Source: Rhynchobatus australiae
Taxonomy: Eukaryota
NCBI GenBank assembly: GCA_034780895.1
Contig: JAUZTB010000072.1
Location: 17,993,210-18,057,209, forward strand
DNA: 64,000 nucleotides
Direction of reading: 5' to 3'
This document shows, piece after piece, positions 24,690 to 62,400 of the stretch; positions within the stretch are counted from its first letter, which is position 1; each line of letters starts with the position of its first letter. The notes beneath the pieces are model-generated. The model had not been told where the DNA came from. It worked only from the letters and a program-made list of their open reading frames with translations, and ran no database searches. The position numbers were made by a program, and so were the translations under genes.

Positions 24690-26555
24690 TAACATTTAAA
24701 GGATTAATACATAGTTTGCAAGTGATATATTTTCCTTTTAAAGCAAAAAAAACAGGAAAAGTGGTCCAGCTATGGCTATCAAGAGAAGTTAGAGATAGTG
24801 TTAGATCAAAGGAAAAGGCTTATAATGTTGCCAAAAAAAGAACGGTAAGCCTGAGGATTGAGAGAATTTCAGAATTCAGCAAAGGAGGACTGAGGCATTG
24901 GTAAGGAAAGGGAAGGTAGAACACAGGAGGAGGCCAGCAAGAAACATAAAAGCAGACTGTAGAAGCTTCAACAGATATTTAAAAAGGGAAAGATTAGCTT
25001 AAATTACAGTGGGTCCCCTATAGACTGAGGCAGGAGAAATTATACTGGGGAAAATAAAGAAATGGCAGAGAAATTAAGCAAATATTTTGTGTCTTTCTTC
25101 CTGAAAACAGATTCAGAAATTCCAGGAAATAGTGAACCAGTCTGGAGTAGGTAAAGAACTCAAAGAAATTAACATCAGTTAAAAATTAATGTCAGAGGAG
25201 TTAATGGGCCTGAAGGGAATAAATCCCTCGGATGTATCGTGCAACTGAGAGTTCTGAAGTAGGTGGCTACTGAGAACTGGTTGTCATCTTCCAGTGATCT
25301 ATGGATTACTCAATGGCTTCTNNNNNNNNNNTTTAAGAAAGGACAGAGAGTGAATGTAGGCAGTCAGGGACCAGTTAATCTTACATCTGTAGCAGGGAAA
25401 TTACTGCAATCTATTATTAAAGAAGTGGCACAGGACAGTTAGTCCTGTCATTGAAAGAGAAATCACGTTTGACAAGTCTGTTGGAGTTTTTTGAGTTGTA
25501 ACCGTCAGAACAGATCAGGGTGGATCATTGGACAGACTTTCAGAAAGCCTTGGATGAGGGGTCATACAAGAGATTATTAAACAAAATTAGCATGCCCGTT
25601 ATTGGGGATAACATGCTGTTGTGGATAGAAGATTAGTTAGTGGCCGAAAAAGAGAGAGGAGGAATAAACATGTGTGCCACAGGGATCGGTACTGGGACCT
25701 CAGCTGTCCACAATCTATATCGATGACTTGGGTGAGGGGCTCAAGTGTAAAATATCGAGGTTGGCTGATGAGCTGAGAGCCGGGGTGGATGGTGAGGAGA
25801 ATGCAGAGAGGCTTCCATGGGCAGACAGATGGATGAGGACATGGCAGATGGAAAACAATGTGGAAAAAGATGAGGTCATCCACTTTGGTAGAAAAATACA
25901 GAAAGCTGGAGTGTTTGAAATTGTGAGAAACTGGTGCACAGAGGGAGCCGTGTGTTCTTGTAAACAAGTCATTGAAAGTTAATTAGCAAACAGCCCAGAA
26001 GGTGACTGGTACATAGACTGTTTCTGCAAGAGAACCAGAGTGGAGGGGTCTTGCTCCAGTTATATTGAGCCCTGCAGAGACCACACATTAAATATTATGC
26101 ATTGATGTAGTCTCTCCCTGAAGAAGGAGATACTTGTGATAAAGGCGGTGTAACAAAGTCCTGCTTCCTGGAATGATGGATTTGTTGCGTGAGGAGAGAC
26201 AAAGCAGACAACACCTTCAGTTTAACAGAACGAAAGGTGATCTCAGTGTACAGAAATCATGAGGGGGTTGGCAGGAAGGATGGTGGGTGCCTCGAAGAAG
26301 GTGCCACAGTCTCAAAATAAGGAGTGGGCCATTCAGGACAGAGATGAAGAGGAACATTTTCCCCCAGGGGGCGGCGAATCCTTGGAATTCTTCACCCAAG
26401 GGAGCTGTGGAGTCTCGATCACTGGCTATATTAAAGACAAAGCTAGATTTTAATATACGAAGTGATATGGTGTAAGTGCAGGAAAGTGGCACTGATCAGC
26501 TGTGGTCTCACTGAGTGATGGAGCAGGCACAAGCAGCCGGATGTCCTATTTGTAG
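24690..26555 (+). mobile_element. Degenerate 5'-truncated CR1 LINE (RT domain to 3' tail)
   Basis: KVVQLWLSREVRDSVRSKEKAYNVAK, PQGSVLGPQLSTIYIDDL...ISRLADE and GPFRTEMKRNIFPQ...WNSSP; many stops and frameshifts. Confidence 0.9.
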
Positions 26556-28281: not shown

Positions 28282-28447
28282 GTGTGGTTCAGTAATCGCC
28301 GTGCTCGATGGCGTAAGCAGGCTGGAGCCAATCAGCTGGCAGCTTTCAACCACCTGTTACCGGGAGGTTTTGCACCCACTGGAATGCCAACCCTGCCCCC
28401 ATATCAGTTGCCTGAGTCATCATACCCATCAACTACCCTCTCCCAAG
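28282..28447 (+). CDS. pax7: Pax7 exon 6 equivalent: homeodomain recognition helix (Ser50) and start of transactivation region
   Basis: Acceptor ctaattttcag|, donor AAG|gtaagg; 166 nt, phase 0 to 1. Encodes [55 protein letters not shown]. Confidence 0.98.
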
Positions 28448-29429: not shown

Positions 29430-29629
29430 ATGGAGGGAGCACCGTCCACAGACCGCAGCCTCTGCCGCCCTCGTCCATGCATCAGAGCGGCCTGGCAGCT
29501 GCAGCCGAGAGTGCCTCCTATGGCCTAGCATCCAATCGGCACGGCTTCTCCAGCTACCCTGACAGCTTCATGAACCCGACAGGACCCAACAACTCCATGA
29601 ACCAGGTCAGCAATGGACTCTCTCCACAG
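29430..29629 (+). CDS. pax7: Pax7 exon 7 equivalent
   Basis: Acceptor ggacccag|, donor CAG|gtcagc; 200 nt, phase 1 to 0. Encodes (D)[66 protein letters not shown]. Confidence 0.97.
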
Positions 29630-30311: not shown

Positions 30312-30493
30312 TTGATCCTCAGTGAGAGTCGGCACCTTCAGGGGAGGGGGCTGATCCCCAGTGAGAGTTGGCACTTTCAGGGGAGGGGGCTGATCCCCAG
30401 TGAGAGTCGGCACCTCCAGGGGAGGGGGCTGATCCCCAGTGAGAGTCGGCACCTCCAGGGGAGGGGGCTGATCCCCAGTGAGAGTCGGCACCT
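30312..30493 (+). repeat. 39-bp minisatellite array 1 (AGTGAGAGTCGGCACCT(T/C)CAGGGGAGGGGGCTGATCCCC)
   Basis: About 4.5 near-identical head-to-tail units running into a 100-N gap. Confidence 0.97.
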
Positions 30494-30750
30494 NNNNNNN
30501 NNNNNNNNNNNNNNNNNNNNNNNNNNNNNNNNNNNNNNNNNNNNNNNNNNNNNNNNNNNNNNNNNNNNNNNNNNNNNNNNNNNNNNNNNNNNNTAGGCTC
30601 AGTAACACCAGCCATGTTCACCCTGACCGGGAGTGTGGAACGTCAGTATAGACCTGCTCCTGGGCAATGTCTACCCACCTTGTGCAGCAAACCTGTACAA
30701 ACAAAACCTCCCACCACCCTGTGAGTGCTGCCCCATCCTGCCAGATTTAC

Positions 30751-30813
30751 CTCATCCTGTGCGACCTGTGCAGTGCGGAAGTCCTCTTCCTGATTCTTTT
30801 GGCTCCTTGATTT
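30751..30813 (-). CDS. CCDC50-like antisense gene, exon D
   Basis: Minus strand ctcttacag|AAATCA...GATGAG|gtaaat; 63 nt, phase 0-0. Encodes KSRSQKNQEEDFRTAQVAQDE, matching the recalled short CCDC50 exon ending DMRAAQVAQDE. Confidence 0.85.
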
Positions 30814-31299
30814 CTGTAAGAGATTTTTCTTGAACTTAAGCTTGAATTTACAAATGAGATACAAACTATTGGCACTGAAAGCAAAGTGCGATACTGTAAC
30901 TAAACCTCTCCCACTTTCCATGACTGACCAGCTCAGGCCCTGAGCATCACTGAGGAAAAGCAGCACTCCCTTTTTCTCTGCACAGTCAAACCTCAGCACA
31001 GGTCAGAGCCCATCTGTGCTTCCTTTAAAGCATAAAAACTTGTTTGCAGAGAACAACTTCCCAAAGCGTATCAAAATTGGAAAATTAGGAAAGGTGAGCA
31101 AATAATCAGATTTAAAGTGGTGGGGGTGGGTTAAAGAACGAGGGAGAGAGAGGCACAGAAGTTCTGGGAGGGATTCCCAGAGCTGGAGCCCAGCCACAGT
31201 CTCGAGCTGTGAAGCAATTCACTGAGGGCCAGGAGGCCAGAGATTTCACAGGGTTGTTTGTCCACTCCTTGGGATAGGGGCCTCCCTAACAATGCTGCA

Positions 31300-32760
31300 T
31301 CCATTGCCCATCCTTAGTATCCCTCTAGAAAGCAGTGGTGAGCCAACTTCTTGAACCGTTGCAGTCCTTCTAGTGAAGGGACTCCAACTGTGCTATTGGA
31401 TAAGGAGTTCCAGGATTTGGACACAGCAATGAAGGAGGACTGGTGCTGAGTGTCCTGCAGAGGAACCTACAAGTGGTGGGGTTTCCTTGTCCTCCTCAAG
31501 TGTCGTGGTTGTGGGTTTGCAATGTGCTGTAATAACAGCAGAGGTGAGTAACTGCAATGCATTCAGTAAACGGTACACACTGCAGCCACGGAATGACGGA
31601 GGTGGAGGGAATGAATGTTTAGGATGGCAAAAAGGGTGCAAATCATACAGGCTGCTTTGTCCTGGCTGGTATAATCCAACTCCAACATCACGCTTCTGCG
31701 CAGCTTGGGGCAAGACCTTGGGAGCACAGGAGATGGGTCACTCACCCATCTGCCCTGCTGCTGTAGCCACACGAGGCTGGTCCAGCTGAGGTTCTGGTCA
31801 ATGGCAACCTGCAGGATGATGAGGGAGGGGACAGTGGTGGTAATACCAGTCAACGTTAAGGGTGAGTGGTTAGATTGTCTGGCACTCTGTGACACAAATG
31901 TTTCTTGCCTCTGGCCGGTTTGCCCTTTGGTACCCACCAGCCTCCATTTTATCAGAGCTCCTCGATGACATACTCAGTCAAGTGCTGCCTTGGCGTCAAG
32001 AGCAGTCACTCTCTCCTCACCTCTGGAATTCAGCCCTCTGGTCCTCGTTCAGACCAAGGCTTTGAGGAGGTTGGGAGCCAAGGCGTCCTGGCAAAACCCA
32101 AACAGGTCATTGGCGAACAGGTCATTGGCGAGTGCTGCTTGGGACAACAGCTTCCCTCACCTTGGTGTGGATGGAGAGAAGACTGATTCAGTGATAATTA
32201 GCAGGAGTGGTCATCCTGCCACTGATGGACAGAGCACACTGGTTCAGGAAATGCTGGTATTGCAACTATACTGGAACAGCTTGGCTGCAGGCACGGCGAG
32301 TCCTAGACTTCCCTACAATGGCTGGCACCCTGTCTCTTCCCATAACCTTCACTGCAACCTGCGCTCTCATGTGGAGTTAACTGAATCGGCTGAAGACTGG
32401 CTTCCACAATGGTGCAGTGGGGATCTCAGGAGAAAGCCAAGACAGATCCCTTCATTGACAAATGCTCAGTTACTGGGCCCCACCATTGCAGAGGATGGGA
32501 AGGTCCTTGGAAGCTCCTCCTGCTCCTCCTACTGGCTGTTTAACTGACCACCACCAGGCGTGGTGAGCCACCACAGGACTGCTAAGCTGCCTGGTGGAGG
32601 TGGCATCACATCCACCGCGTGCCGTTTGGACTGCAGGTGGTCCTGTATTACTGACACCGTGTTGCTACCTCACCCTGGGCTCTGCCTTGCAGCATGCACC
32701 TGCACTCCCTACTGAACTGTTTCTGCCCCTCCGGTACTTGATGCTAGCAGGGCCAGAGGA
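31300..32760 (-). mobile_element. Highly decayed non-LTR retrotransposon (CR1/L2 group)
   Basis: Reverse strand ends in TTCAAGAAG..GCTCACCAC...GGATGGGCAAT, an elasmobranch LINE 3' end; RT-like remnants upstream. Confidence 0.55.
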
Positions 32761-32916
32761 GGGTTGAGGGAACTCTCAGGAAACAGTTAATGACCATGAC
32801 AACAACCCAAGGCTATTTGACAGAGCAGCCCAGCGCCTCATGATTGATGGACCGATCAACAGTGTTAAACCCCGAGCGCTCCAATTGCCCCCACGTACCA
32901 GCTGGACCATCCTCAC

Positions 32917-33059
32917 TTCCTCCTCCTCCTGCAGTAGACGGGCCAATGCCTCGTCCCTCTGGAGCTGCTCCTCATCAGCACTGTAGGAATCTTTGATAGT
33001 CAGCTCTGCAACCTTCCTGTCCAGAGAGCTCCCACCCTGCTCACGCCACAGTCTCTTCC
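32917..33059 (-). CDS. CCDC50-like antisense gene, exon C (MIU-like motif)
   Basis: Minus strand gctaat...ttttgctttttgtcctgaacag| and GAA|gtgagg; 143 nt, phase 1 to 0. Encodes (G)KRLWREQGGSSLDRKVAELTIKDSYSADEEQLQRDEALARLLQEEEE. Confidence 0.85.
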
Positions 33060-33335
33060 CTGTTCAGGACAAAAAGCAAAAATCCAATTAGCCATCATCT
33101 CTCAGACATGCGCGACTTGTGTCAGTGCAGAAGGGCAAAGGATCGCGGGGCACCGAATGAACCCACTCTTCCCTTCACACAAGGGGAGCCCGACTGTTTC
33201 ACTGTGGGGGTATCACAGGTAAAGTCCACCTGTGGGGCATTATGTGGGTGGGAGGTGGAGGAAGAGTCACTGAAGGGTGACTGGGGATGTTTTATTTGCC
33301 AGGTGCTGCCTCCCTCCTGACCGAGNNNNNNNNNN

Positions 33336-33509
33336 ATGTTGGTTGTGCAGCGCTGGGGTTTTCTGTCGGACTGGGAAATGACAGGAATGGTTTCCCGGCT
33401 GGGTGACCACACCGGAAACTCCACTGGTCACTCTCGGGTAGGCATCATGTTGTACGGATGGGCTTGTGCAGACACAATTCCAAGAGCATTGTGAGCCGGA
33501 ACCAAGTTC
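33336..33509 (+). repeat. Inverted repeat arm A (pairs with 34434-34609)
   Basis: About 80% identical over ~175 nt by hand alignment, with two 1-nt gaps. Confidence 0.92.
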
Positions 33510-34276
33510 TGCAGAGCGCCAGTGGTCAGGGTCCTGTTAAGCCCAGCCAGCAGTGGCTCTCATGGTTAGGAGTAGATCTCTGAGTGGGCCCCTGACCCAA
33601 GGAGGCTCCCTTTAAACTACTCACCTCCCATCCCATCTCCCAAATCTTCCCCCTGCCCCACCCATCGCCTTACTGACCCTCACACCCACCAATCATCTGA
33701 TCCAATACCCCAACACCACCCTCACTCCAGCCCGATTCACAAACCCTCCTCCACTGGGTCATTCGAGACCCAGATCCCCGAACACCTGACTTGACCCCAC
33801 CACTGCCACTGATTGCTCACGGCTCACCCCCGCCCTGTTCACACACCCCACACGGTGCAGCGTTTGAAGGAAGGCGGCTTGTTAGAGGACAGCTTGGAAA
33901 GGACAGACACCTTTGTCCGCATTGTGCCACAGAACAAGTAACACCGTCCCTGCAGCGACTGAGGAACCCACCACGAGAGGTGCCAATGAACGCTGGGTGT
34001 TTGTTTTCTTTGCCTACTGCAAGGTAAAGCCCTTTGCTACGTCCAACAGCAGTGGTTATGTAGTTGCCAGACCCATCCCTCTCCAGGGTCCACCTCGTCC
34101 CCCTCCCAACGTAATGTGCTCCACATGAGGGTGTAGGGTGAACGCGTGGTCGTTGGGGAAGACATCAGCCACGTGACTTCAGCTGCAGATGCCTCACGTG
34201 AAATCCAGTTGAAGGCGAGTCCCTGCTCCCTCCATTAAACCAACATCCATCAGCTGGAGAGAGTGCCAAAACTCAC

Positions 34277-34348
34277 CCTTCCCTGGAGAGGTCAGGCTGT
34301 GGGCCTCAAAATGTATAAAGCTCGGTGAGCGATAAATAACACGTTCTA
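34277..34348 (-). CDS. CCDC50-like antisense gene, candidate symmetric cassette exon B
   Basis: Minus strand cattccccag|TAG (NAGNAG) and consensus donor AGG|gtgagt; 72 nt, phase 1-1, open in the required frame: (V)ERVIYRSPSFIHFEAHSLTSPGK(G). No homology support. Confidence 0.5.
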
Positions 34349-34433
34349 CTGGGGAATGATGTTTAGATCACCAGGACAAAGAGAGGTGATGAATTCTTTC
34401 ATTAGGGAATGGGATCCTCGACGTGGAAACATG

Positions 34434-34609
34434 GAACCTGATTCCTGCTAACCACGCTCTCGGAATTGTGTCTGCAGAAGCCCATCCACACAACATGATT
34501 CCTGCCAGGAAGTGACCAGTGCTATTTCCGGAATGGTACAACCCAGCCCAGAAACCGTTCCCGTCACTGCCCAGACCTACAGAAAACCCCAGCACTGCAC
34601 AACCCACGT
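34434..34609 (-). repeat. Inverted repeat arm B (pairs with 33336-33509)
   Basis: Reverse complement GGTTGTGCAGTGCTGGGGTTTTCTGT...ATCATGTTGT..GGATGGGCTT.TGCAGACACAATTCC is shared with arm A. Confidence 0.92.
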
Positions 34610-34829
34610 CCCCAGTCACCCCTCTGCACCTGATGTCCTCCGTGACCATTGATAAAAGCTTTTAACGGAGGTGAGTGCAACAGAAAAGGATTTGAGGAAA
34701 GGTCTGAGGAGGGACTGCAGAACTGGTTCTTGGAGAGTTAGCCCTGCTGCAATGGGCCAAATGGCCTTCCTCCATGCAGTGGCATTCAATGACTTGATCA
34801 GGGGGAAAGTCACCACCTCACCCCCTTCC

Positions 34830-35350
34830 CAGCCACAGGGGGTCAGCTGTAGCTCAGTCACGATTCCAGTTCCATCCATCTGGGGCTGCAGTATTGTGCT
34901 GGGGGAGCCCTGCACTGTCAGTAGTGCCACCTTTGATGAAAGCGTTAAACCCTGGACAAAAAAATAATGCCATGGGATATTTATGAAGAGATTTCTTCAC
35001 CCAGGAGACAGGGAATCTTTGGGTTGTGGAAGCTCAGTTGAGTGTACTCAATGCAGAGGTCGAAAGTTGAATGGATATTACAGAAATCCTGGGGCTTGTG
35101 GAGGGAAGTGGAACTGAGGTAAAAGATCAGTTATGATCTTACTGAATAGTGGAGCAGGCTCGAGGGGCTTCTGTCTCTCTCGTTCTTATACCAGAGCAGA
35201 GACCTTGTTATGTTGCTGCTTGTGGGAGCTTGCTGTACGCAAACTTGTTGCCACATCTCCCTCATTATCACAGGGTTAACATTTAAAGTATTTCATTGGC
35301 TGCAATGTGCTCCAAGGCCGCAGATTGTGAAAGGCGCTATACAAATGCAG
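34830..35350 (+). mobile_element. DeuSINE-like SINE interrupted by a CR1 3' tail (about 34990-35190)
   Basis: CCTGCACTGTCAGTAGTGCCACCTTT-GATGA, then a CR1 TTCTTCACCCAG...GGAGCAGGCTCGAGGGGC segment, then TGTGGGAGCTTGCTGT...GAAAGGCGCTATACAAATGCA. Confidence 0.6.
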
Positions 35351-35368
35351 AGAGGTGACATGGTTTAC

Positions 35369-35474
35369 CCCTCTGCCGGTACGCCTCCTGTCCAGCCCCG
35401 TACACCTCAGCCTCTGGTGTGAGTCTTCCCTGGTTCCTCAGCTCTTCCTCCTCCTGTAACCTTCTGGCCACTTC
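35369..35474 (-). CDS. CCDC50-like antisense gene, exon A
   Basis: Minus strand gactaat branch site, tgtttgtgttgtag| and GGG|gtaaac; 106 nt, phase 0 to 1. Encodes EVARRLQEEEELRNQGRLTPEAEVYGAGQEAYRQR(G); compare the recalled CCDC50 exon starting DIARLLQEKEL. Confidence 0.82.
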
Positions 35475-35751
35475 CTACAACACAAACACATGGGACAAAT
35501 TAGTCACAGCACTGCCCTGAAACACTTCGCCAAAAAAAAAGCCCCTTCGAATTTCTAGACACCAGTATGAAAACCCCATGCACGCTGCAAGGGGCAGTCA
35601 TCACATGAAAACAAAACATGAACTGTGCTTCAGGTCAGGTAGGGAGGGGGCAGGAAACTACAAGGTTGCCCAGTCCAGCCGGGCATTAGTGGCATGGGGA
35701 TGGGGGTCACCTGACAGGGCAGCACACGGAGCTCAACCTCAACATACAGCT

Positions 35752-35927
35752 AGTGAGGGTCGGCACCTAAAGGGGAGGGGGCTGATCCCCAGTGAGAGTC
35801 GGCACCTTCAGGGGAGGGGGCTGATCCCCAGTGAGAGTCGGCACCTTCAGGGGAGGGGGCTGATCCCCAGTGAGAGTCGGCACCTCCAGGGGAGGGGGCT
35901 GATCCCCAGTGAGAGTAGGCACCTTCA
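35752..35927 (+). repeat. 39-bp minisatellite array 2
   Basis: About 4.5 units, same unit and orientation as 30312-30493. Confidence 0.97.
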
Positions 35928-36596
35928 AAAGGCTTGAGAAAGTGAGCCAAGGACAGAGAGAATCTATTCCCATTTCAAGCTGGTGAGTCAGTGAGAGCCA
36001 AAGTGGAAGCATTAAGCCTTGTTCTGGAAGGCTTCCAATTTCTCATGACCTGACTCCTTTTCAGTAGGCGGGGCTGTGGGTATGACATATTTGCCAGAAA
36101 GTTCTTCATTTTCACATTCCCTGTGGAGCAGAAAGCTTGTCTGAGAAGCGGATGTTAGTAGCACCTGGTACGGTCCGAACAATGTCTGCACTCTAGCTTG
36201 GCAGGGCCACACTGCAACCACATGGCATGAGATATCATCATGATCTTATGGCAGGACTATGGAAAGCTAAGCTTCTCTGCATCCTCAGGGGGCTGTTAAA
36301 TACTTTTCACAGATTTCTCACTCTTGCACTGGTTGAAAGTTCCTTTCTTCAGCTTCCACCGTCTTTTGGAATGAATCCCATTTTTTTTTGGAAACCAGTA
36401 ATCCTCGTAATATTTTCTCACTCCATCTCTGCTACTGTTTCTCCGAGATCCTTGAGTGGGCTGCCACACAGTCATCTTGTAAACTTGATAAGCGCAAAAT
36501 TTTTCTTAAACTGTGCAATGTTAAATCAAATGCTTTTGTATTACTTATTTGAACGAAGTCCAAGACAGGGGATTGAAGAGAAGAAGATTTTGCGAC

Positions 36597-36720
36597 AGAG
36601 AGAGAGAGAGAGAGAGGGAGAGGGAGAGGGAGTGGGAGAGAGAGGAAGAGAGAGAGAGAAGCACAGAGGGAGAAACATACAGAAATATACAACAGAGAGA
36701 GAGAGAATAAAACAGGCAGA
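36597..36720. repeat. (GA)n microsatellite / purine tract
   Basis: GAGAGAGA and GAGGGA runs. Confidence 0.9.
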
Positions 36721-38619
36721 AACACTGTGAGATGAAAGTGTGCGTGAAGATGTCTCTTTACCAGCAGTGATAACTCAGCAATGATTTTGTCACTAAATAC
36801 AAAGCAGATTTTACAACAACATTCACAATTTTATTTCCATTTCACTCACTCACCTGCATTAGTTGGTGATGTTAATCTGTGAGAACATCTGCCAGGGATG
36901 AACACCTGAGCCTACCCATCTCTGCCCTTGGTCTGTCAGAGCCATGCCATGTTCTTGATATAGACTCAGCACACAGGACCTCTTGCACAGCTTGGAAACC
37001 AATACTGGAAGCTTCGTCAAGTCCCTCTGTCTGACTGTGGGACAGACCAAGCCCAATGCACAGTTCCACTGCCAGTCCTGGGGTTTTGCATCTGAAGCCA
37101 GGTGAAACCTTTGGCTGCCTTTTTCACAGCCTAAAGCTGCCCCAGAGGAGCTCGAGACTCACGTGAGCTGTTTCAACATGATTAAAGGGTTTCATTGCGT
37201 GATGAGATGGAAGGTATTTCTTCTGATGAGGCTAGAGCAAGGAGCTAAAACCTCAAAATTGGAGCTAGCAGTCACGGTGTTGGTGGGAAGCATTCTTTGA
37301 TGGGGAATATTGGAAATGTGGATCTCTGTTGGGGATGGGTGCAGGGTTTTAGTTGACCATTTCTAAACTAAGGTCAGGAAGGATATTATGGGCTTTGGAA
37401 TGAAACGAGTAGAAAGAGTTAAGATGCAGATCAGCCATGGCACAAATGGATGTCAGAACAAGTTTGAGGGGCTAAATGGTCCCACGATTCCACTGTGGTT
37501 CCAGTGGGTCTGCACCATCTACCGTTGTGGTGGCTACCAGGAATAGGAATACAGATCCTTAGTAGTGACCCCCTGTGGGATACATGGGCCCAGGGACAGA
37601 TGAGCTACATTTTGGGGCTGGAACGCATTGCCCCATTTTCTGAGAGCAATCCATTGGCTCTGTAACTAACATTCCAGGACACTTGGTGATGATGTCAAGC
37701 AACAGGTAAAGACACATCCAACGGCACGATATCACAGCTTCATGATGGCCCATCCAATTCTGGATGGACATATCAGATGTCCCAACTCACTAATGCCTGA
37801 GTTCCTGGCCAGTGGATAAAGAGGCAGGAATCCCACATGACAAGATCCAACCCACACCTGGTTACTTTGACCAGCAGAGCAGCAGATTCCTGGATGGCAG
37901 ATGAAAATATTAGGATGCTATTAAATTTATTGAGAAAAACACTTACAAAAGTCATAGAGATTGTAGCCCTCGGCATCAGTGAAACCACAGTCGGTGATGC
38001 AGGCGGGTAACTTTTCTGTCCTGTCAGTCCAGTGTAGGCAATAATCCCTTAAACTTTTCTGCCGCCTGCTTTCATTCTCTGTCTTCTGTCAGCAGTCAGC
38101 AGTTGTTTGATCGCACTATTTCCAGGGTTACTGGGTGGGCTGTGGGGCTCAGGGGAGTCTTGGAGGGAGTGGGATTGGATTTCATGGAGAATCCCAGGAT
38201 TTCTGGGGGGAGAACCATGTTTGAGGGGAGAGAGAAGAGGAACATGAAGTTTGAGGGTGGGTGAGATGTCATTGGGGTTTGTGGGGTCCAGGCCAGTAAG
38301 AAACAAGATTGTTTCTGTGGGTCAGTTCTGCCACTCTGGGACCAACACAAATAATTCAGCTCTTGTTCTCACCTGGTCTGCATTGCTGGAATTATAGGGT
38401 GGAGTTATAATAGTGTGCGGTCTGCTTTGCATTTAGTGACAAAACCATTTCTGAGTTATCCATCCCAGTAAGAATACATTCTCACTCTGTCTCACATTCT
38501 AAGACACCAGTTACTGTATTAAAGGGCTGGATTTCCTGAAGCTGGAGGACTCTTTGAAGTTTCCTTCTGAAATTCCCCCCATTTACAGCCAGCAAGAGCA
38601 GTGAGAATTGGTTACAGAA

Positions 38620-38930
38620 GCCTTCAGGAACAGTTAGTTTCCTACAGCCATTAGGTTCTTGGACCAACCTGCACAACCCTAATCCTACCTCAGCAACTGA
38701 ACATTATGGACCACATCTTGCACTACCATGGACTTCTCTCTGTGGTTTTGTTTGCACTACAAAGTCTTGCTTATACACAGTCTTTTTTTTCTTCACTGTC
38801 TTGTATAATTTACATTCTATGTGTTGTCTGAACTTATGTGCCTGTGATGCTGCTGCAAGCAAGTTTTTCACTGCACCTGTACCCCTCCGTATTTGTGCAT
38901 GTGACAATAAACTCAATTTGACCACTTGAT
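38620..38930 (+). mobile_element. Rex1/Babar-like LINE 3' end
   Basis: TTCAGGAACAGTTAGTTTCCTACAGCCATTAGGTTCTTG (decayed FRNSFFPTAIR.L) followed by a UTR with AATAAA. Confidence 0.65.
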
Positions 38931-41229
38931 CCTCAGGATTGGGATTAGCTCTGAACCACCCCCCCCACCCCCACCCCCGTGGCTGAAGGGCAACAGGTAT
39001 TGGAAATGAACCAAAACTAGAATTGGGACATGGAGGTTGGCAGTCAAGGCCTTTGGGAGGTAGGCTGAGTATTGGAGACTCGGTCTGTGACAGTCACTAT
39101 GAGGTCTACAGGACCTGGATCAAGGTCTGCAGGAACCATGACTCTGGGAGTCTGTGGGGTTCACATTGTTCTCAACACTTCCAGTTATCACCACTTGCAT
39201 CCAACAGTAGGTGACATTAATGCTCCTGAATGGAAACTCCTTATTGGACCAGGGATTCACCATCGGGAGCCAAGTGGCCACATTTCATTTATTTTATTAG
39301 ATAAGTAGGAAAAGAGAAATGTGTGAATCTTTGTAATTAGAATGTTGGATGATTAGTTGGAGGGAGACGGGCTGCATTTGATGTTTAGTGAGCTGCTATC
39401 AACCCGGTGAGTGTGGAGCGAGGGAATGAGAGAGACGTTTGCTCTCCTTTGATCCACCGCCCCAGGCACACTTCACAACCACTTCCAGTCTGAGTGAGTG
39501 GTTTTCAGTTATTCCTGGCAAGTGTCTGTTGGAGATAAGAACAGAACCCCAGCATTGTACACAACCCATCACACCAGCAGCTGGCCAATCTGTGGAATTA
39601 CAGTAAAATCCATGTCGGGAACAGAGAAGTCCGTATAGGTGCTTCAGAATACTGTAAACACTTCAAGTCAAGTATTTAAAATGTTCTGAAGCACCTGTAC
39701 TGAAGGGTCATTGTGGGATGGAATAAGATGGTTCATCAATTCTTGCCTCTGTCTCTCCTGCTTTTCCTTTGTAAATCTGCCTCTCTTTCTGCCTGGAAGG
39801 TTCAAATTCTGATTACTGTTGTCCCCTACAAGCTCTGCTCTATTGGTACAAACATTCCCTGCATTTAACACTTCCATTTAATTAACACAGTGAGAGGTTT
39901 TGTCAAAGTAAATGCCGTTATAAGAAAACAGCAGTCAGTGGAGCTTCCCCTGTTCATCCCTCAGAATTTCTCAAATCCTGCTTAATGCTCTTTCTCCTTC
40001 TTCCTCTCTCTCTTTCTCTTTCTCTCTTCTTCAACCTCCCTTCTTCCTTCTTTCTTATCTTCCTTCATTCATTCCTGTCTCCCATCATCTCCCTCACTAC
40101 CTCCTTCACTATCTGTCTCTTTCCCTCTCCCTCATTCTTCTTAATCCTCCTTTCTCACCTTCCCTCTCATCCAATCTCCCTCACTTCATCCCTCTCCTCA
40201 TTTCTCTTCTTCCCCTCCAATTGAGCTCCTGCTATCAAGCACTCCCAGAGCCATCGTGTATCTCTCCAAGCACCAAACCCTCTGACACATCATCACCCCT
40301 GTTGTACGAGAAGCATTAGATGTGGTGACAAACAGACAGATATCGAAAGCCTACTCAAGACGGAAAGGTCAATTGGCCGCATGTGCTTTCCGTTAGTTAC
40401 AAATACCAGACTGACAGGGGCGGGCCCTGTAATTAATCCCTGCTCTCCTCCGAGCCCTGGCTCCTTCCTTTTCTCACCCTGTGACTGCAGATGACTCAGT
40501 GAGCCTAAGTGTTAAATTCGCCATTGTTATTCACTATGTTCGGAGGGGCTGTAAGATTATTTGCTCTTTCACAAATCAGGCAAGATCACAAGGAGCACAG
40601 GTGGATGCTGCAATGTCTGTCAGATTCCCTGATTCCAAAAGCATGGATTACTGTAAAATGCCCCACAGATGGAAGTCCTTTGGCCCATCGGACCTTTGCC
40701 AGCTCTTTGCAAACCTATCTGTTCTTCCACTCCTACACTCTCCCCATGCAGTCAAATGCTTCTTTCCCCTTTAAGTATTTATCAAACTCCTTTTGGAAAA
40801 AGCATTGAGTCTCTTCTTCCACTCTTTCAGGCCATGTTTAGTGAGGGCTCAGCAGAAGCAATAAACCAAATCATGTATGAGAGTGACCTTTAGCTCCTAT
40901 CGTACTTTGTAAAAGTAGCTCATTATACACGAGTTGCAAGACACATTCAGTGTAAACATGTGCCAGTGTGAATGGATGTGTGGATGAACTAGTGAGTGGG
41001 AAGATGGAAGATCCTGACTCATACGTTTGTAGTGTATGCATATCTGCATACATTCAGTACTGGGTTATTTTTATATATTTGTGTAATTACGTTTAGGTAC
41101 TCTGAATGAATACGCATATGTTTTATGGAAGTGGGTTTCTATTTTGATGGCTTGCATGCATGTGAATATAAGTGGGCAGGAGTGTTTGAATCTGTGGGGT
41201 CAAGATGTCTGTGTGTGCACATACATCAG

Positions 41230-41900
41230 TGGCCTCAGGGTTAAACTACTGTCCATCCAGAGTAAGGATCCTTAAACCAATGTACATTTTGAGTCAGCAC
41301 TCAGTGTTCAATTCGGTCTCTCAGAAATGGCACCTTTTAATTAAACGGGTTCCCTTTTGTACCCTCGGGGTTAAAAACTTGTCCCCTTAAGGTTAGCGCT
41401 CTCAAGGTTAAACCTGTGTCCATTCAGAATCAGCATTCACTGGGATAAGACTGTGNNNNNNNNNNNNNNNNNNNNNNNNNNNNNNNNNNNNNNNNNNNNN
41501 NNNNNNNNNNNNNNNNNNNNNNNNNNNNNNNNNNNNNNNNNNNNNNNNNNNNNNNATAAGACTGTGGCCAGTCACACTCAGAATTGACCAGGTTAAGTCT
41601 GTGCCCAAGTGGAGTTGACACTATTCTGTTAAATTTGTGCCGACAAGAATCAACACTCAAAAACTTGCCGTGTGTTTAGCCCCTGCCCACTGAGCCAGCA
41701 CTGTAAGGGTTAAATGTGTGTCTAATTATGGCAGCATTCTCAAGATTAAACCTCTGCCCAGTCAGATACAGCAGCCACTGGGTTAAATCCTTGCCCACTG
41801 AGAGTAGACACTCATCGGGTTAAACAGCTGGCACTCTCAGAGTTAAACCCATTCCCACTCAGCGATGGCATTCACTGGGTTAAACCTGTGCCCACTCAGA
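41230..41900. repeat. Degenerate ~37-38-bp minisatellite (GGGTTAAACCTGTGCCCACTCAGAGTCAGCACTCACT-like)
   Basis: GGTTAAA recurs at about 37-38 nt spacing between 41700 and 41890, with related units upstream. Confidence 0.75.
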
Positions 41901-42575
41901 ATTCTCAGCTGGTGACTGCTCCAAGTGGCTGCTCGTCTTCACTCAGACTCCAGCTGAGCCTATTTCACTATTTATTTACATGTAATTATGTCTGTAAGGT
42001 GCGGTTATTAACTCTGTCAACAGCAATTTGCTTTGACATTTCTCACTTTGTCTCTTACCCACCGTTCTCGCCTAAAACCGCCTGCCACTCAGAACCTGCT
42101 CTGTTTATTCTCTCTTCAAACTGTGTTGCAGATTCATAACAAACCTGTGCTTCACTGTTAAACTCAGCGGTTTCATTCCCTGATCAAATGTCTAGCAAGC
42201 TGTGTATTGAAAGTGTTTTTTTATACTTGTTAGTGAATCTGAATTCAGGGGCTGACAGTTTTTCAAACTAAATTTGTGTCAAAGATTTTTTGAAATGAAA
42301 TCTTAATGTGAAATATTAACCTCCCATTAATCGGTCATAGTTTATAACAGAGAGCAGCTGTTACCGTAGTTGTTATCTCAGTAAACCTCAAAATATGCTG
42401 ACAATCTCAGATTCAGACGGTGCACTTGGGGAGAAAAAAATCCCTACAGATGTCAGAATAGAAAGGGTGAGAGCAAATTGGGAGCCTGTTTTGCAACTTA
42501 CTTGGTTCCATTTTCTGAAATGGAGAGTAAAACTGGCTGGTTATTTGCTCCCATTGGACAGTATATGATTTCCCA

Positions 42576-42685
42576 AAGGTGCCGACCCTCACTGGGGATC
42601 AGCCCCCTCCCCTGAAGGTGCCGACCCTCTCTGGGGATCAGCCCCCTCCCCTGAAGTTGCCGACTCTCACTGGGAATCAGTCCCC
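42576..42685 (-). repeat. 39-bp minisatellite array 3 (inverted)
   Basis: About 2.8 units of AAGGTGCCGACCCTCACTGGGGATCAGCCCCCTCCCCTG, the reverse complement of the unit in arrays 1 and 2. Confidence 0.95.
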
Positions 42686-44021: not shown

Positions 44022-44580
44022 CCTCTGTAACCTTCACCGCTCTCCCCATCCATGCAACCGTTAGCTCTCTCCCCAACCGTGTAACCTTAACCCATCTCCC
44101 CATCCGCTTAACCGTCACCGCTCTCCCCATCCATGTAACAGTCACCACCTCCCCATCCATGTACCCTTCACCCCTCTCCCCATCCGTGCAACTTTCACCC
44201 CTCTCCCCATCCATGTACCCTTCACCCCCTCCCCATCCGTGCAACCTTCACCCCCTCTCCATCCACGTAACCGTCACCCTCTCCCCATCCATGTAACCAT
44301 CACCCCTCCATATACATGTAACCTTCACCCCNNNNNNNNNNNNNNNNNNNNNNNNNNNNNNNNNNNNNNNNNNNNNNNNNNNNNNNNNNNNNNNNNNNNN
44401 NNNNNNNNNNNNNNNNNNNNNNNNNNNNNNNCTCCACATCCTTGTAGCCTTCACCCCTCTCACCATCCATGTAGCCTTCACCTGTCTCCCTTTCCATGTA
44501 ACCTTCAGCCCTGTCCCCATCCATGAAACCGTCACCCCCTTCCCATCCATGTAACCTTCACCCTTCTCCACATTCCCTCC
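44022..44580. repeat. ~27-bp minisatellite (CCATCCATGTAACCTTCACCCCTCTCC)
   Basis: More than 12 visible diverged units either side of an N gap. Confidence 0.92.
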
Positions 44581-46160: not shown

Positions 46161-47684
46161 ACCTCTCCTCCCATCCCTCTCCTCCTATCACTTCTCCCCT
46201 CTCCCATCCCATCCTCCCATCCCTCTCCTCCTCCCTCCCAGTCTCCTCCCTGTCTCCCCTCACTCACCCCACCTCCCGTTCCCATCTCCTCCTTCTTCCC
46301 CCATGTTCCCCTCATGCCCTCACCTCCTCCTCATGCCCTAAACTCTCCCCCTCCCTCCCCTTTCTACTGCGTGCTCCATCCACTTCCTCCCAATTCCCTC
46401 ACCATGCTTTCCTTCTGGAGCTTTTCACTTTTCATTAACTCGCTGCAGCCAATTCGCCAAGTGACATGGAGACCAGATAGAAATCATCTCTGTCATCTGT
46501 TCTCTGCCAGACAGGAGCCAGCAAGGCTCAGTCGCAAACACTGTCCAGTCCAGGTCTATTAATTAGAACAGATTGAATGAGGCGTGAAAATCCCCATAAT
46601 TGCACTCATCACAATTTATTTTGAAGCTCATGAATTTGCTTTATTTTGGCTGGAAGATATCCTGACACTTCCCCCTGGTCCCTTCAGTGTTAAACCACTT
46701 CCCAGGGCTTTGCATCTGAGAATCACTGAACTTTTAAAATATTAACTGAGTGAAGTATCTTCAGATTATATCCCATAGTATCAGTGCAGTAATTGGCAGT
46801 AACTCTGAAGAAATTAAGCCCACATGGTTCACCAGTTGAGTCTGGTACAACTTAGGTTACAAACATAGTAAAGCTCCCTCTCTGATGTCCCGTCAAACTT
46901 GGATTAGGTATGGAGTAAAACTCCCTGCTCACCCAGACTGCCTCCTCTGTTCTACCTGTGAAGCAGGATTTGCATTTGTTGAGTGAATTTGTTGATTTGG
47001 TGCTGGCTGCAATGTGTGTTTGGGAGGAAATCTTACTAAATATTGGCAGGAATATTATTTTGGACAGGAAGGGAGGGTTGAATGGGAGTGAAGTCCAGCA
47101 TTCACCCAGGATGACAGGTGCATTATTGTGTCTCCTGCTGCAGTCCTCAGTAAGAGGGAAATGCAGGGGTGGAAGTGATTGTTCCATGCAGAAGATTTCG
47201 AAGCCTACTGATGTGATTATTTGTCATGTTGCAGCACGTCTAACCACACTGCAGGATAGTGCCTGATGGGTTCTCCTGGGGCTGCTTTCACAGTGACGCC
47301 TAACTGCGCGTATGTTCACTGGGGCAGCTCAGCACTGTGATACTTGGTACAGCTCCGACAAGCTGGAAGAGTCAGCACAGGGTGGTCCCACTGGCTTGTC
47401 TTGAGGAATTTCCATTAGCATCAGTTCACTGCCGGCCAGTGGGAGGAGTGGCACATGGAGGGTGCTACCTCTGGTGGCAGCAGGGCAGGGCAGTGGGCAG
47501 CAGTGCAGTGAACTCAGTGTGAGAGAAGGTAATGGGATTCGCTGAGTCACCCACTGAGGGAGGGGTGTGACAGACATTCTATCACCCCAGGGGGATAGAG
47601 TGTGACAGTGAGTCCTAACTCAGTCACCAGTGGAAGAGGGGAAGCTATGTCTTTAGTCCCTAGAGTGGAGAAGGTGAAGAAGGG

Positions 47685-48064: not shown

Positions 48065-48590
48065 AGTAGGGGAGTGGAGTGTCAGTTGGTGCGACCTGAG
48101 GCACCCAGTGGGAGGAGGGGGGTGGGAGTGGGTGCTGTGGGAGAGGGGGGTAGGAGTGGCTGCCCAGTGGGGGAGGGGGTGGGAGTGGGTGCCCAGTGGG
48201 AGTAGGGGATGGGAATGGGTGCCCAGTGGGAGAGGGGTGTGGGAGTGTCTGCCCTGTGGGAGATGGGGTGGGAGTGGGTGTTGTGGGAGAGGGGGTGGGA
48301 GCGTCAGCCCAGTTGGAAACGGGTGTGGGAGTGGCTGCCCAGTGGGAGAGGGGTGTGGGAGTGGCTGCCCAGTGGGAGAGGGGGTGGGAGTGGGTGGTGT
48401 GGGAGAGGGGGTGGGCGCGTCAGCCCAGTTGGAGACGGGTGTGGGAGTGGCTGCCCNNNNNNNNNNNNNNNNNNNNNNNNNNNNNNNNNNNNNNNNNNNN
48501 NNNNNNNNNNNNNNNNNNNNNNNNNNNNNNNNNNNNNNNNNNNNNNNNNNNNNNNNGGGAGTGGATGCCCAGTCACCCGGTGGGGAGTAG
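48065..48590. repeat. G-rich ~30-bp minisatellite (CCCAGTGGGAGAGGGGTGTGGGAGTGGCTG)
   Basis: Many tandem units with GGG tracts; N gap inside. Confidence 0.92.
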
Positions 48591-48599
48591 TGTGTGACA

Positions 48600-48890
48600 T
48601 TGTGCGCTAACTCCGTGTGATGTGCCAAAGGGTTAAACAATGTGGTAAGAAATCGGCTTCCATCAGCAAACTGAAATATGAAAGTGAAGGGATTAAATTA
48701 CGTGAAATTAGCTCCATTTGTCAGTCACTCAGACCGTCCTCTAAAGCTGCTACACGGCTTCTCCGTTAATTGCCATCAGGCCTGGTCACAGATTCCATTG
48801 TAATCTGATGTGCAAATTAGCTCCCTGCGAATTGAATTCATTTGTTGTCACATTTAGACCCAGTTTCCAATTGTTTCTTCCCCTTTAAAT
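48600..48890. promoter_or_regulatory. Candidate intronic enhancer / conserved non-coding element
   Basis: Non-repetitive and CpG-retaining; Sox-type AACAATG (48636) and CATTGT, several TAAT cores, AAATTAGCTCC twice (48705, 48814). Conservation not tested. Confidence 0.45.
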
Positions 48891-49899
48891 ACAGCCCCAA
48901 CCCCCACCTCTCTCTTTGAGATATTTGCCCGAAGCAGTCAGTACTAAAAGGAAAAAGAGACTTTTAAACGGCTGGATCTGGTTTTGCGACCAGCGTCCTT
49001 TTCCCTCCGCTCTTTCTGCTTCACTCACACCCTCTTTCCGCACTCGATACAGATTACAGGGGACTGATTGATGGTGTGGAGGGCAGGCATCTGAAGCCTG
49101 GACTATCAGTGCTGCAAACAGCGTCGCCCCAGGCAGCACTGACTGCCCTTGTCGCTCTTTGTACTTTGACTTTCTTTCACGTTTCATTGAAACCACAGAG
49201 GAGACCCGAAAGATCTCGAGAAACCTCGTTTGGATCCAATAAGTCACTCGGCGTAGTCTATTACTTGTGCCCGCAGGGGGTTACCGCGCACTCCTGATGC
49301 AGAGCGTGGAGAGAAAGAGGGAAACACAGAGAGAACTTTAAACCTTAATCGAAATCATTTGCTAACAGTTCCCAATCCTTGCCACCGCGTAGCACTCGGG
49401 AATTACCCCAGAATCCTCCGAATACTAAAACAATTATTGCCGAGATAGAGAGAAAGCGGATGTTAATAACACTCGGGGTAACGTTCCCATTGTATTCCAG
49501 ACCAGTGATAAAGCCTGTTGTTTNNNNNNNNNNNNNNNNNNNNNNNNNNNNNNNNNNNNNNNNNNNNNNNNNNNNNNNNNNCCTCAGCCCATCCTCCGTT
49601 AGCTTAACCGTCAATTCAGAGCCTTGTGGGGTTGTATTCAGGAAATAAATACTGAATTCAGTTCAGAAAACCATCCTGCCTGTCAGCCAGGAAAGTATCA
49701 CAAACACGTCACGGATCACTGGATAATGATGTGGACCAGAAACACTGACTGACTCTTTCCCTTTCTAACCTAGTTGAACCGAGACCAATTGAACCAACTT
49801 TTTACAGCTTCTCAATTATGTCATCTTATGGTTACCTTTCAGTAACGATTGGAATTGCATGAATTCTCACCAAATTATTAGTTGATGGCAAGGACATAG

Positions 49900-52800: not shown

Positions 52801-53100
52801 AGATTTGATAGGAGAGTGAATAATTATTGACAGTCTCAGAGAAGGCAGATAAAGAAAAGTTATTCCCGTTAGCTAATGGTACAAGAAGTGGGCAAGAGAT
52901 ATGGCAAGATGTGAGGAAGGACCTCATTTATGCAACAAGTGGTAATGATCTGGAACTCAGTGCCTACAAAGTTGGTAGAAATTGGAGAGGTACTTGCAGA
53001 ACTGCAGGATACAGTGGGAGAATGGAAATGGTGGGTTTGCTTTATGGAGATCCAGTATGGATAAATGGCTCCTTCTGTTCCATCTTGGTTCTGTGACTAT
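49900..53100 (+). mobile_element. Long decayed CR1 LINE (end of ORF1, endonuclease, RT, 3' tail)
   Basis: YRPPNS, GDFN, PEDWKVANVTILLKEG...NCRPVSLTSVVGKVLE, MDFKK, QGSVLG and KFAD remnants in order; interrupted at about 51406-51598. Confidence 0.9.
51406..51598 (-). repeat. Inverted copy of 48704-48886 inserted in the CR1
   Basis: 51412-51504 aligns ungapped to the reverse complement of 48788-48880 with 15 mismatches in 93 nt; similarity continues with gaps. Confidence 0.93.
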
Positions 53101-62153: not shown

Positions 62154-62400
62154 GTGATGAGCATCCTGAGTAACCCCGGAGCGGTCTCCACCCAGCCGCA
62201 GCATGACTTCTCCATCTCCCCCCTGCACGGGAGCCTGGACACCTCAAACCCACTGTCCGCCAGCTGCAGCCAGCGGTCCGACTCCATCAAGGCCGTGGAG
62301 AGCCTGCCCACCTCTCAGTCCTACTGCACGCCCGCCTACAGCACATCTGGATACAGCATGGACACTGTGCCTGGCTACCAGTACGCTCAGTACGGACAGA
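62154..62400 (+). CDS. pax7: Pax7 exon 8 equivalent (transactivation domain)
   Basis: Long pyrimidine tract with tttccacag|, donor AGA|gtaagc; 247 nt, phase 0 to 1. Encodes [82 protein letters not shown]. Confidence 0.97.

What the first reader, a model, noticed from the sequence alone, without database searches (positions are those of the whole stretch)
30312..35927. The antisense exons are bracketed by two direct 39-bp minisatellite arrays
Seen: every CCDC50-like exon lies between array 1 (which ends in a 100-N gap) and array 2 in the same orientation, and none was found outside. Inference, two options: (a) a ~5.3-kb fragment of another gene entered Pax7 intron 7 by ectopic recombination between dispersed minisatellite copies, leaving direct repeats at both ends; (b) the assembler jumped between loci at the repeat and the segment is a mis-join. 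This decides how the top finding should be read.
Basis: partly seen in the sequence, partly recalled or inferred. Interest (0 to 1): 0.7.

Follow-up and report, generated by a model that had tools for sequence, protein, structure and literature searches.

The report
Foreign exons spliced into ray Pax7
Three intact exons of another gene, one that shares Pax7's chromosome in related sharks and rays, sit backwards inside a Pax7 intron between copies of a 39-base repeat, most likely because the assembly software crossed over at the repeat, not because the genome really moved them.

Summary
Two same-direction 39-bp arrays (30313-30493, 35752-35927) enclose three consecutive, intact, minus-strand exons of the CCDC50-like ('ccdc187') gene. 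No other exon of that gene is in the window.

The bracket is lopsided. Array 2 is joined to the block by sequence. Array 1 is cut off from it by a 100-N gap, and no repeat unit lies on the block's side. A third, inverted array (42576-42685) was missed.

The exons show no decay. In 5 of 5 cartilaginous fishes with data, the donor gene lies on the same record as Pax7. A Narcine gene model shows array-like sequence upstream of the same exon, so the donor likely carries its own array there.

Best reading (0.55): a chimeric join at array 2 in a very fragmented draft, with arrays 1 and 2 being two ends of one Pax7 array. Main rival (0.22): a real, recent copy made by one-sided repair from the array, which gives the same sequence. 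Reads, or the rest of the assembly, would decide.

The parts
9385..9587 (+). Pax7 exon 5 (numbering recalled from the mammalian gene)
   Evidence: tblastn and exon comparison, 0 differences in 66 aa from Pristis and Hemitrygon; homeodomain hit
28282..28447 (+). Pax7 exon 6
   Evidence: 0 differences in 55 aa from Pristis and Hemitrygon
29430..29629 (+). Pax7 exon 7, last Pax7 exon before the bracket
   Evidence: 0 of 67 aa differ from Pristis; PF12360 hit
30313..30493 (+). Array 1 of the 39-bp minisatellite; contiguous with Pax7 intron DNA on its left, runs into the gap
30494..30593 (.). 100-N placeholder gap; no end overlap and no repeat unit on its right side
30594..35751 (-). Foreign block, 5,158 bp of CCDC50-like ('ccdc187') genomic DNA, GC 0.525, with a 10-N gap at 33326-33335
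30751..30813 (-). CCDC50-like exon c (63 nt), 157 bp from the gap
32899..33059 (-). CCDC50-like exon b (161 nt)
35369..35474 (-). CCDC50-like exon a (106 nt), 277 bp from array 2
35752..35927 (+). Array 2; gap-free on both sides; inferred junction between donor DNA (left) and Pax7 intron DNA (right)
35928..42575 (.). Segment X (6,648 bp) between the inverted arrays 2 and 3; composition like the rest of intron 7, origin not proven
42576..42685 (-).
62154..62400 (+). Pax7 exon 8, collinear with exons 5-7

Best explanation
The 5.2-kb block holds three intact, consecutive exons of the CCDC50-like ('ccdc187') gene, and it is likely misplaced in Pax7 intron 7 by an assembly error at the 39-bp repeat. 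Inferred mechanism: the donor gene has its own array about 280 bp upstream of exon a, and Pax7 intron 7 has one array at this spot plus an inverted one 6.6 kb on. While building the piece 33336-41455, the assembler entered the donor's array from the exon side and left through the Pax7 array, so array 2 is a hybrid. The true left neighbour of that Pax7 DNA ends in array 1. It was then placed in front of the hybrid piece across a placeholder gap. Arrays 1 and 2 would thus be the two ends of one Pax7 array of at least 223 bp, and the direct repeats would be a by-product. Shown: anatomy, exon integrity, one-sided contact with the repeat, gap class. Inferred: the donor array, the hybrid junction, an intact gene elsewhere in this animal.
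For: (1) Very fragmented draft: 31 gaps, 32 pieces, median 1,434 bp, N50 2,344 bp; the piece holding array 2 is the longest, 8,120 bp. (2) The left junction has no sequence support. 7 of the other 9 100-N gaps have an exact end overlap or the same repeat on both sides; this one has neither. Of 4 such gaps at tandem repeats it is the only one with repeat on one side only. (3) The exons look like part of a working gene: canonical splice sites, open frame, 52 of 54 invariant columns kept, no rate excess in 18 of 18 relative-rate tests (p>=0.21), short tree tip. Yet both ends of the gene are absent. (4) The Narcine model P0005 carries about three degenerate units upstream of exon a, in the same sense as array 2, which points to an old array in the donor intron. 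What lies beyond it in Narcine does not match what lies beyond array 2 here (score 10.2, null median 9.3). (5) Arrays 1 and 2 share 17 exact 55-mers and one 71-mer; array 3 shares none at k=55. One unit variant is in array 1's last full units and array 2's last full unit only (a single site, weak). (6) X resembles the rest of intron 7 (GC 0.446 vs 0.449; AT skew -0.055 vs -0.045) and the block differs (0.525; +0.027).
Against: (1) The donor is on the same record as Pax7 in 5 of 5 cartilaginous fishes with lengths in both lists, and in coelacanth; it differs in Podarcis and Scomber (6 of 8 overall). A jump to a random genome-wide copy would rarely land on the same small chromosome, unless the repeat family is local; that was not testable. 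(2) Array 2 is only 176 bp, short enough for read pairs to span, and no exact word of 72 bases or more is shared between the visible arrays. (3) The Narcine flank matches the flank of array 3 (18.6, above all 300 local nulls), which an inversion of X would also explain. Window-wide, 9 of 20 shuffles scored as high. (4) The GC step at array 2 is not exceptional: 14% of positions show as large a step, and outside windows reach GC 0.535. (5) Intact exons are equally expected from a recent real copy. (6) 2 other 100-N gaps (14605, 17996) also lack end support.
Confidence: 0.55

Rival explanations
1. Real, recent duplication by one-sided invasion. A break in the G-rich Pax7 array was repaired by one end invading the donor gene's array on the same chromosome, copying at least 5.2 kb (exons a-c), and then end-joining to the other half of the Pax7 array. 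This needs one donor array only and leaves direct repeats at both ends.
For: It predicts exactly the observed asymmetry. The donor is on the same chromosome in relatives. Array 2 is assembled without a gap. The array holds G-quadruplex-like runs under a loose pattern. One-sided invasion is a described repair route (PMC9299229, passages read, plants).
Against: It must be recent enough to leave no trace of decay in 110 codons and six splice sites. The junction is hidden in the gap, and the only microhomology seen is 5 nt, near chance. By general experience (not measured here) such events are rarer than mis-joins in drafts with 2-kb pieces.
Confidence: 0.22
2. Old, real overlap. The CCDC50-like gene lies antisense across the 3' part of Pax7 in some batoids, with its first exons beyond the window and its last exons hidden in the unknown-size gap. 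Segment X flips between the inverted arrays 2 and 3, which would give the Narcine order (array-3 flank, array, exon a).
For: The exons show no relaxation. The Narcine model also lacks the first exons, with homology starting at exon a, and its upstream peptide fits array 3 plus flank best. Both genes share a 10.2-Mb scaffold in Callorhinchus.
Against: About 160 codons of downstream exons are absent from 1-30493 and would all have to hide in gaps. In skate the Ccdc50-3 promoter is at 6.91-6.95 Mb of Leri_30C, while genes that flank Pax7 in amniotes (order recalled) are at 1.26 and 5.28-5.47 Mb; Pax7's own position was not seen (PMC10115646 supplement). The flank match is not significant window-wide. 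Hemitrygon has an ordinary full-length model.
Confidence: 0.12
3. One reading: the donor fragment was flanked by arrays on both sides and entered Pax7 by recombination at both ends, or as a circle cut out between two donor arrays.
For: Two near-identical arrays in the same direction enclose the exons.
Against: The block's left end carries no repeat unit, whereas the other 3 repeat-associated 100-N gaps show repeat on both sides. Homology tracts are short (181 and 176 bp visible, longest exact match 71 bp).
Confidence: 0.06

Closest known systems
CCDC50-like gene of cartilaginous and bony fishes, labelled 'ccdc187' or 'CCDC50-like' by NCBI (Pfam PF15295, CCDC50_N)
   Same: The three exons encode residues 112-221 of the 381-aa Hemitrygon protein at 85% identity and group with the two batoids at 99/99. 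Zebrafish ccdc187 has a 63-nt exon, the length of exon c (PMC13139549 supplement row; sequence not compared).
   Different: Only an internal third of the gene is present: no first exons, no CCDC50_N hit, no last exons.
Repeat-induced mis-join (chimeric contig) in short-read draft assemblies
   Same: One junction lies inside a repeat, the other is an unsupported placeholder gap, the block is an undecayed piece of another gene, and the host gene is collinear on both sides.
   Different: The donor is on the same chromosome in relatives and the repeat is short. Absence of spanning reads could not be tested.
Templated insertion by one-sided invasion / synthesis-dependent strand annealing
   Same: Homology at one junction only, and a copied genomic block with introns.
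   Different: The second junction is unseen and the copy number unknown. The passages read concern plants (PMC9299229).
Non-allelic homologous recombination between direct repeats
   Same: Same-direction, near-identical repeats on both sides in scaffold coordinates.
   Different: The block touches the repeat at one end only, and the tracts are under 200 bp.

Membership tests
CCDC50-like/'ccdc187' gene | Sequence orthology to the chondrichthyan gene | tested here: met
   85% to Hemitrygon, 82% to Narcine, 69-81% to nine sharks over 110 aa; batoid clade 99/99
CCDC50-like/'ccdc187' gene | Consecutive exons, compatible phases, canonical splice sites | tested here: met
   106+161+63 nt, AG/GT, no stop
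CCDC50-like/'ccdc187' gene | Complete gene with CCDC50_N domain and C-terminal exons | tested here: not met
   No hit in the window; gaps and DNA outside the window unseen
Repeat-induced mis-join | A junction inside a repeat shared by both loci | tested here: inconclusive
   Shared 55-mers between arrays 1 and 2; the donor array is inferred from the Narcine peptide only
Repeat-induced mis-join | Other junction lacks sequence support | tested here: met
   No overlap, no repeat on the right of 30494-30593
Repeat-induced mis-join | No spanning reads; single-copy depth; matching hole at the donor locus | not testable with these tools
   No reads and no eukaryotic genome collection available
Templated insertion by one-sided invasion | Homology at one junction, end-joining signature at the other | tested here: inconclusive
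   Homology side seen; other junction is in the gap; 5-nt match only
Templated insertion by one-sided invasion | Block present twice in the genome | not testable with these tools
   Needs depth or the rest of the assembly
NAHR insertion between direct repeats | Same-orientation, near-identical repeats on both sides | tested here: met
NAHR insertion between direct repeats | Insert contiguous with the repeat at both ends | tested here: not met
   Left end is unique DNA facing a gap; the gap content is unknown
Nested or overlapping antisense gene | All exons present and collinear on the opposite strand | tested here: not met
   3 exons only within 64 kb
Nested or overlapping antisense gene | Same position in related species | tested here: inconclusive
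   Same chromosome; distance not obtained; skate table suggests megabases
Retrocopy | Introns lost, poly(A) tail, target-site duplication | tested here: not met
   Both introns retained; no duplication or A-tail visible at the array flanks on reading

The most novel reading that the evidence does not exclude
A 39-bp minisatellite family on the Pax7 chromosome acts as a recombination hub in rays. It copied three intact exons of the CCDC50-like gene antisense into the enhancer-bearing intron 7 of Pax7, and the same arrays link these two loci, and flip a 6.6-kb segment, in the electric ray Narcine as well.
Probability: 0.12. Interest if true: 0.65.

Novelty: not a real feature. Interest (0 to 1): 0.25.

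Why it matters
This finding decides how the 'antisense exons in Pax7' finding should be read. On present evidence it should not be reported as a nested gene: both ends of the gene are missing and the left junction is unsupported.

If it is an artefact, it warns that this draft can splice one gene into another at a repeat under 200 bp, and the donor gene will look broken elsewhere. If it is real (about 0.4 over all real models), it is a minisatellite-guided exon duplication or overlap in a developmental gene's intron that holds an enhancer in mouse (PMC6547497, passages read). That would be of moderate interest to genome-evolution specialists.

Tried and rejected
One search used wrong exon ends, gave a frameshifted peptide and a falsely long branch; it is superseded and not used.

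Old decayed insertion: rejected, because there is no stop, frameshift or rate excess. Retrocopy: rejected, because the introns are present.

A weak C-terminal profile hit at 4261-4491 (E 0.057) reads as a LINE tail by eye and was not counted as an exon. The long alternative exon of Heptranchias and amphibians was not found between exons a and b (12 named long isoforms, best E 0.011).

DNA homology between array flanks was weak or absent: six pairs, p 0.02-0.36; anchored test p=0.09. So whether array plus flank is a dispersed element is unsettled. The Narcine N-terminus found only itself among 1.84 billion representatives, which says little about DNA repeats.

Skate LE gene numbers are not in physical order, so the 12-number gap between Pax7 and Ccdc50-3 was discarded. 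No Rfam family was found. Pfam on all 148 stop-free frames of 85 aa or more found only homeodomain, Pax7 and one reverse-transcriptase remnant. No transposon fragment split across a junction was found.

Accession numbers, which would give gene order, could not be obtained. Ten paper searches found no report of a CCDC50-like gene in or next to Pax7; this library lacks most subscription papers. Supplements of PMC12710766 and PMC11979771 could not be read, and the skate table was cut when stored; any of these could hold the Pax7 coordinate.
Full report
Setting. The window covers Pax7 exons 5 to 8 (numbering recalled from mammals) on the plus strand, in order. Over 270 residues they differ at 1 position from Pristis, 2 from Hemitrygon and 8-11 from three skates, so the animal is a batoid. 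Intron 7 runs 29630-62153. The assembly is very fragmented: 31 gaps, 32 pieces, median 1,434 bp, N50 2,344 bp.

The observation. Arrays of a 39-bp unit lie at 30313-30493 and 35752-35927, in the same direction. Between them are three minus-strand exons (35474-35369, 33059-32899, 30813-30751) with canonical splice sites that join in frame to 110 residues. They match residues 112-221 of the 381-aa Hemitrygon CCDC50-like ('ccdc187') protein at 85%, and group with the two batoids at 99/99 in a 12-row tree of the window plus 11 named species. Neither tblastn with 13 homologues nor profiles of the missing ends found another exon in 64 kb. A bracket this tight has P=1.4e-4 under random placement of three arrays (post hoc).

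First, a third array lies inverted at 42576-42685. Second, the bracket is one-sided in sequence. Array 2 is continuous with the block. Array 1 stops at a 100-N gap, and the block begins with unique DNA. Of the ten 100-N gaps, 5 have exact end overlaps of 5-12 bases, against 0 of the 21 other gaps, so 100 N is a placeholder. Three of the four that touch tandem repeats have the repeat on both sides; this one does not. Two others (14605, 17996) also lack end support.

State of the exons. They keep 52 of 54 columns invariant in 11 homologues and show no rate excess in 18 of 18 tests. The block is therefore a piece of a working gene or a very recent copy, not an old insertion.

Where the donor lives. 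Record lengths given with the protein hits are identical for Pax7 and the CCDC50-like gene in Hemitrygon, Stegostoma, Rhincodon, Heterodontus, Callorhinchus (a 10.2-Mb scaffold) and Latimeria. They differ in Podarcis and Scomber: 6 of 8 species with lengths in both lists (two searches showed the best 120 of 373 and of 340 hits). Identical length is taken as the same record. In the skate paper (PMC10115646, supplementary table rows only) Ccdc50-3 has a promoter bait at Leri_30C 6.91-6.95 Mb. Igsf21-1 is at 1.26 Mb and Iffo2, Ubr4 and Emc1 at 5.28-5.47 Mb. Pax7's coordinate was not in the stored text. A distance of megabases is therefore an inference from recalled amniote gene order, and the orthology of Ccdc50-3 was not tested by sequence.

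The Narcine clue. The Narcine model P0005 lacks the CCDC50_N domain. Its first 94 residues are unrelated to Hemitrygon and include about three degenerate translated units directly before exon a in the model (tblastn E 1.6e-5, 4.1e-5 and 4.7e-4 to arrays 3, 2 and 1). An array therefore likely sits upstream of exon a in another batoid order, which makes the link between the block and the left part of array 2 old. The peptide before those units fits the flank of array 3 (18.6, above all 300 local nulls) and not that of array 2 (10.2). It is also the best hit in the whole window, but 9 of 20 shuffled peptides score as high somewhere. Two readings follow. Either array plus flank is a dispersed element and the right side of array 2 is foreign to the donor, or segment X has flipped between arrays 2 and 3 and is a real neighbour of exon a in both species.

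Mechanisms. A crossover at array 2, between a donor array and the Pax7 array, explains the anatomy with the fewest parts. Array 1 would be the left part of the Pax7 array and the last units of array 2 its right part (merged length at least 223 bp). The crossover can be in silico or in vivo; the sequence is the same. For in silico: the fragmentation, the unsupported gap, the intact exons, and shared 55-71-base words. Satellite collapse and G-quadruplex-linked errors are described for short-read assemblies (PMC7757076, passages read, birds). For in vivo, by one-sided invasion (PMC9299229, passages read): the same-chromosome donor, and an array short enough for read pairs to span. Composition weakly groups X with the rest of intron 7, but the step is not exceptional. 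I put the mis-join at 0.55, a recent real copy at 0.22, an old overlap shared with Narcine at 0.12, two-array recombination at 0.06 and other causes at 0.05. These figures are judgement, not computed.

Papers seen. Search listings only. Passages for PMC6547497, PMC9299229 and PMC7757076. Supplement rows for PMC10115646 and PMC13139549. Header only for PMC12710766 and PMC11979771.

Verdict. The arrays and exons are real sequence, but their placement in Pax7 is probably an artefact, with about a 0.4 chance of a real rearrangement. Reads, the rest of the assembly and chromosome-level DNA of relatives were not available, so the junctions stayed unchecked. Interest 0.25.

Noticed in passing
window 33338-33509 and 34434-34607: Inverted repeat of 174 bp at 81% identity inside the intron between exons a and b; the left copy starts right after the 10-N gap. 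Probably two copies of a dispersed repeat.
   Followed up: partly
window 48704-48912 and 51380-51598: A 222-bp inverted match at 73% between an enhancer-looking block and a copy inside LINE-like DNA; possibly an old mobile element reused as regulatory DNA.
   Followed up: no
window about 40370-40600, 46440-46660, 48650-48910: Blocks rich in TAAT/ATTA words that look like conserved non-coding elements by eye. Conservation untested; a motif search of papers found nothing relevant. The first lies in segment X and would show which gene X belongs to.
   Followed up: partly
window 62364-62366: Pax7 exon 8 codon 71 reads Thr where all 10 compared cartilaginous fishes have Pro: a lineage change or a base error.
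   Followed up: no
protein P0005 (Narcine bancroftii), residues 1-94: The annotated N-terminus is largely translated minisatellite and flank rather than CCDC50_N; probably an annotation artefact, or a sign that the gene is broken at the same intron in that assembly.
   Followed up: yes
searches hit lists: No named Pristis, skate, Mobula or Hypanus CCDC50-like protein is listed, although Pristis and skate Pax7 are. They may be hidden inside 90% clusters.
   Followed up: no
window 41361-41902, 44026-44573, 48104-48456: Three other minisatellites (about 37, 27 and 30 bp) in intron 7, each at a 100-N gap.
   Followed up: partly
window 25668-25979; about 24700-26400, 31250-32800, 50300-53000: Decayed LINE remnants; the first has a reverse-transcriptase hit at E 4e-6, the others were judged by eye.
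   Followed up: no
names: The label 'CCDC187' is given to a PF15295 (CCDC50_N) protein in sharks and bony fishes; from recall, mammalian CCDC187 is a different gene, so the label may mislead.
   Followed up: no
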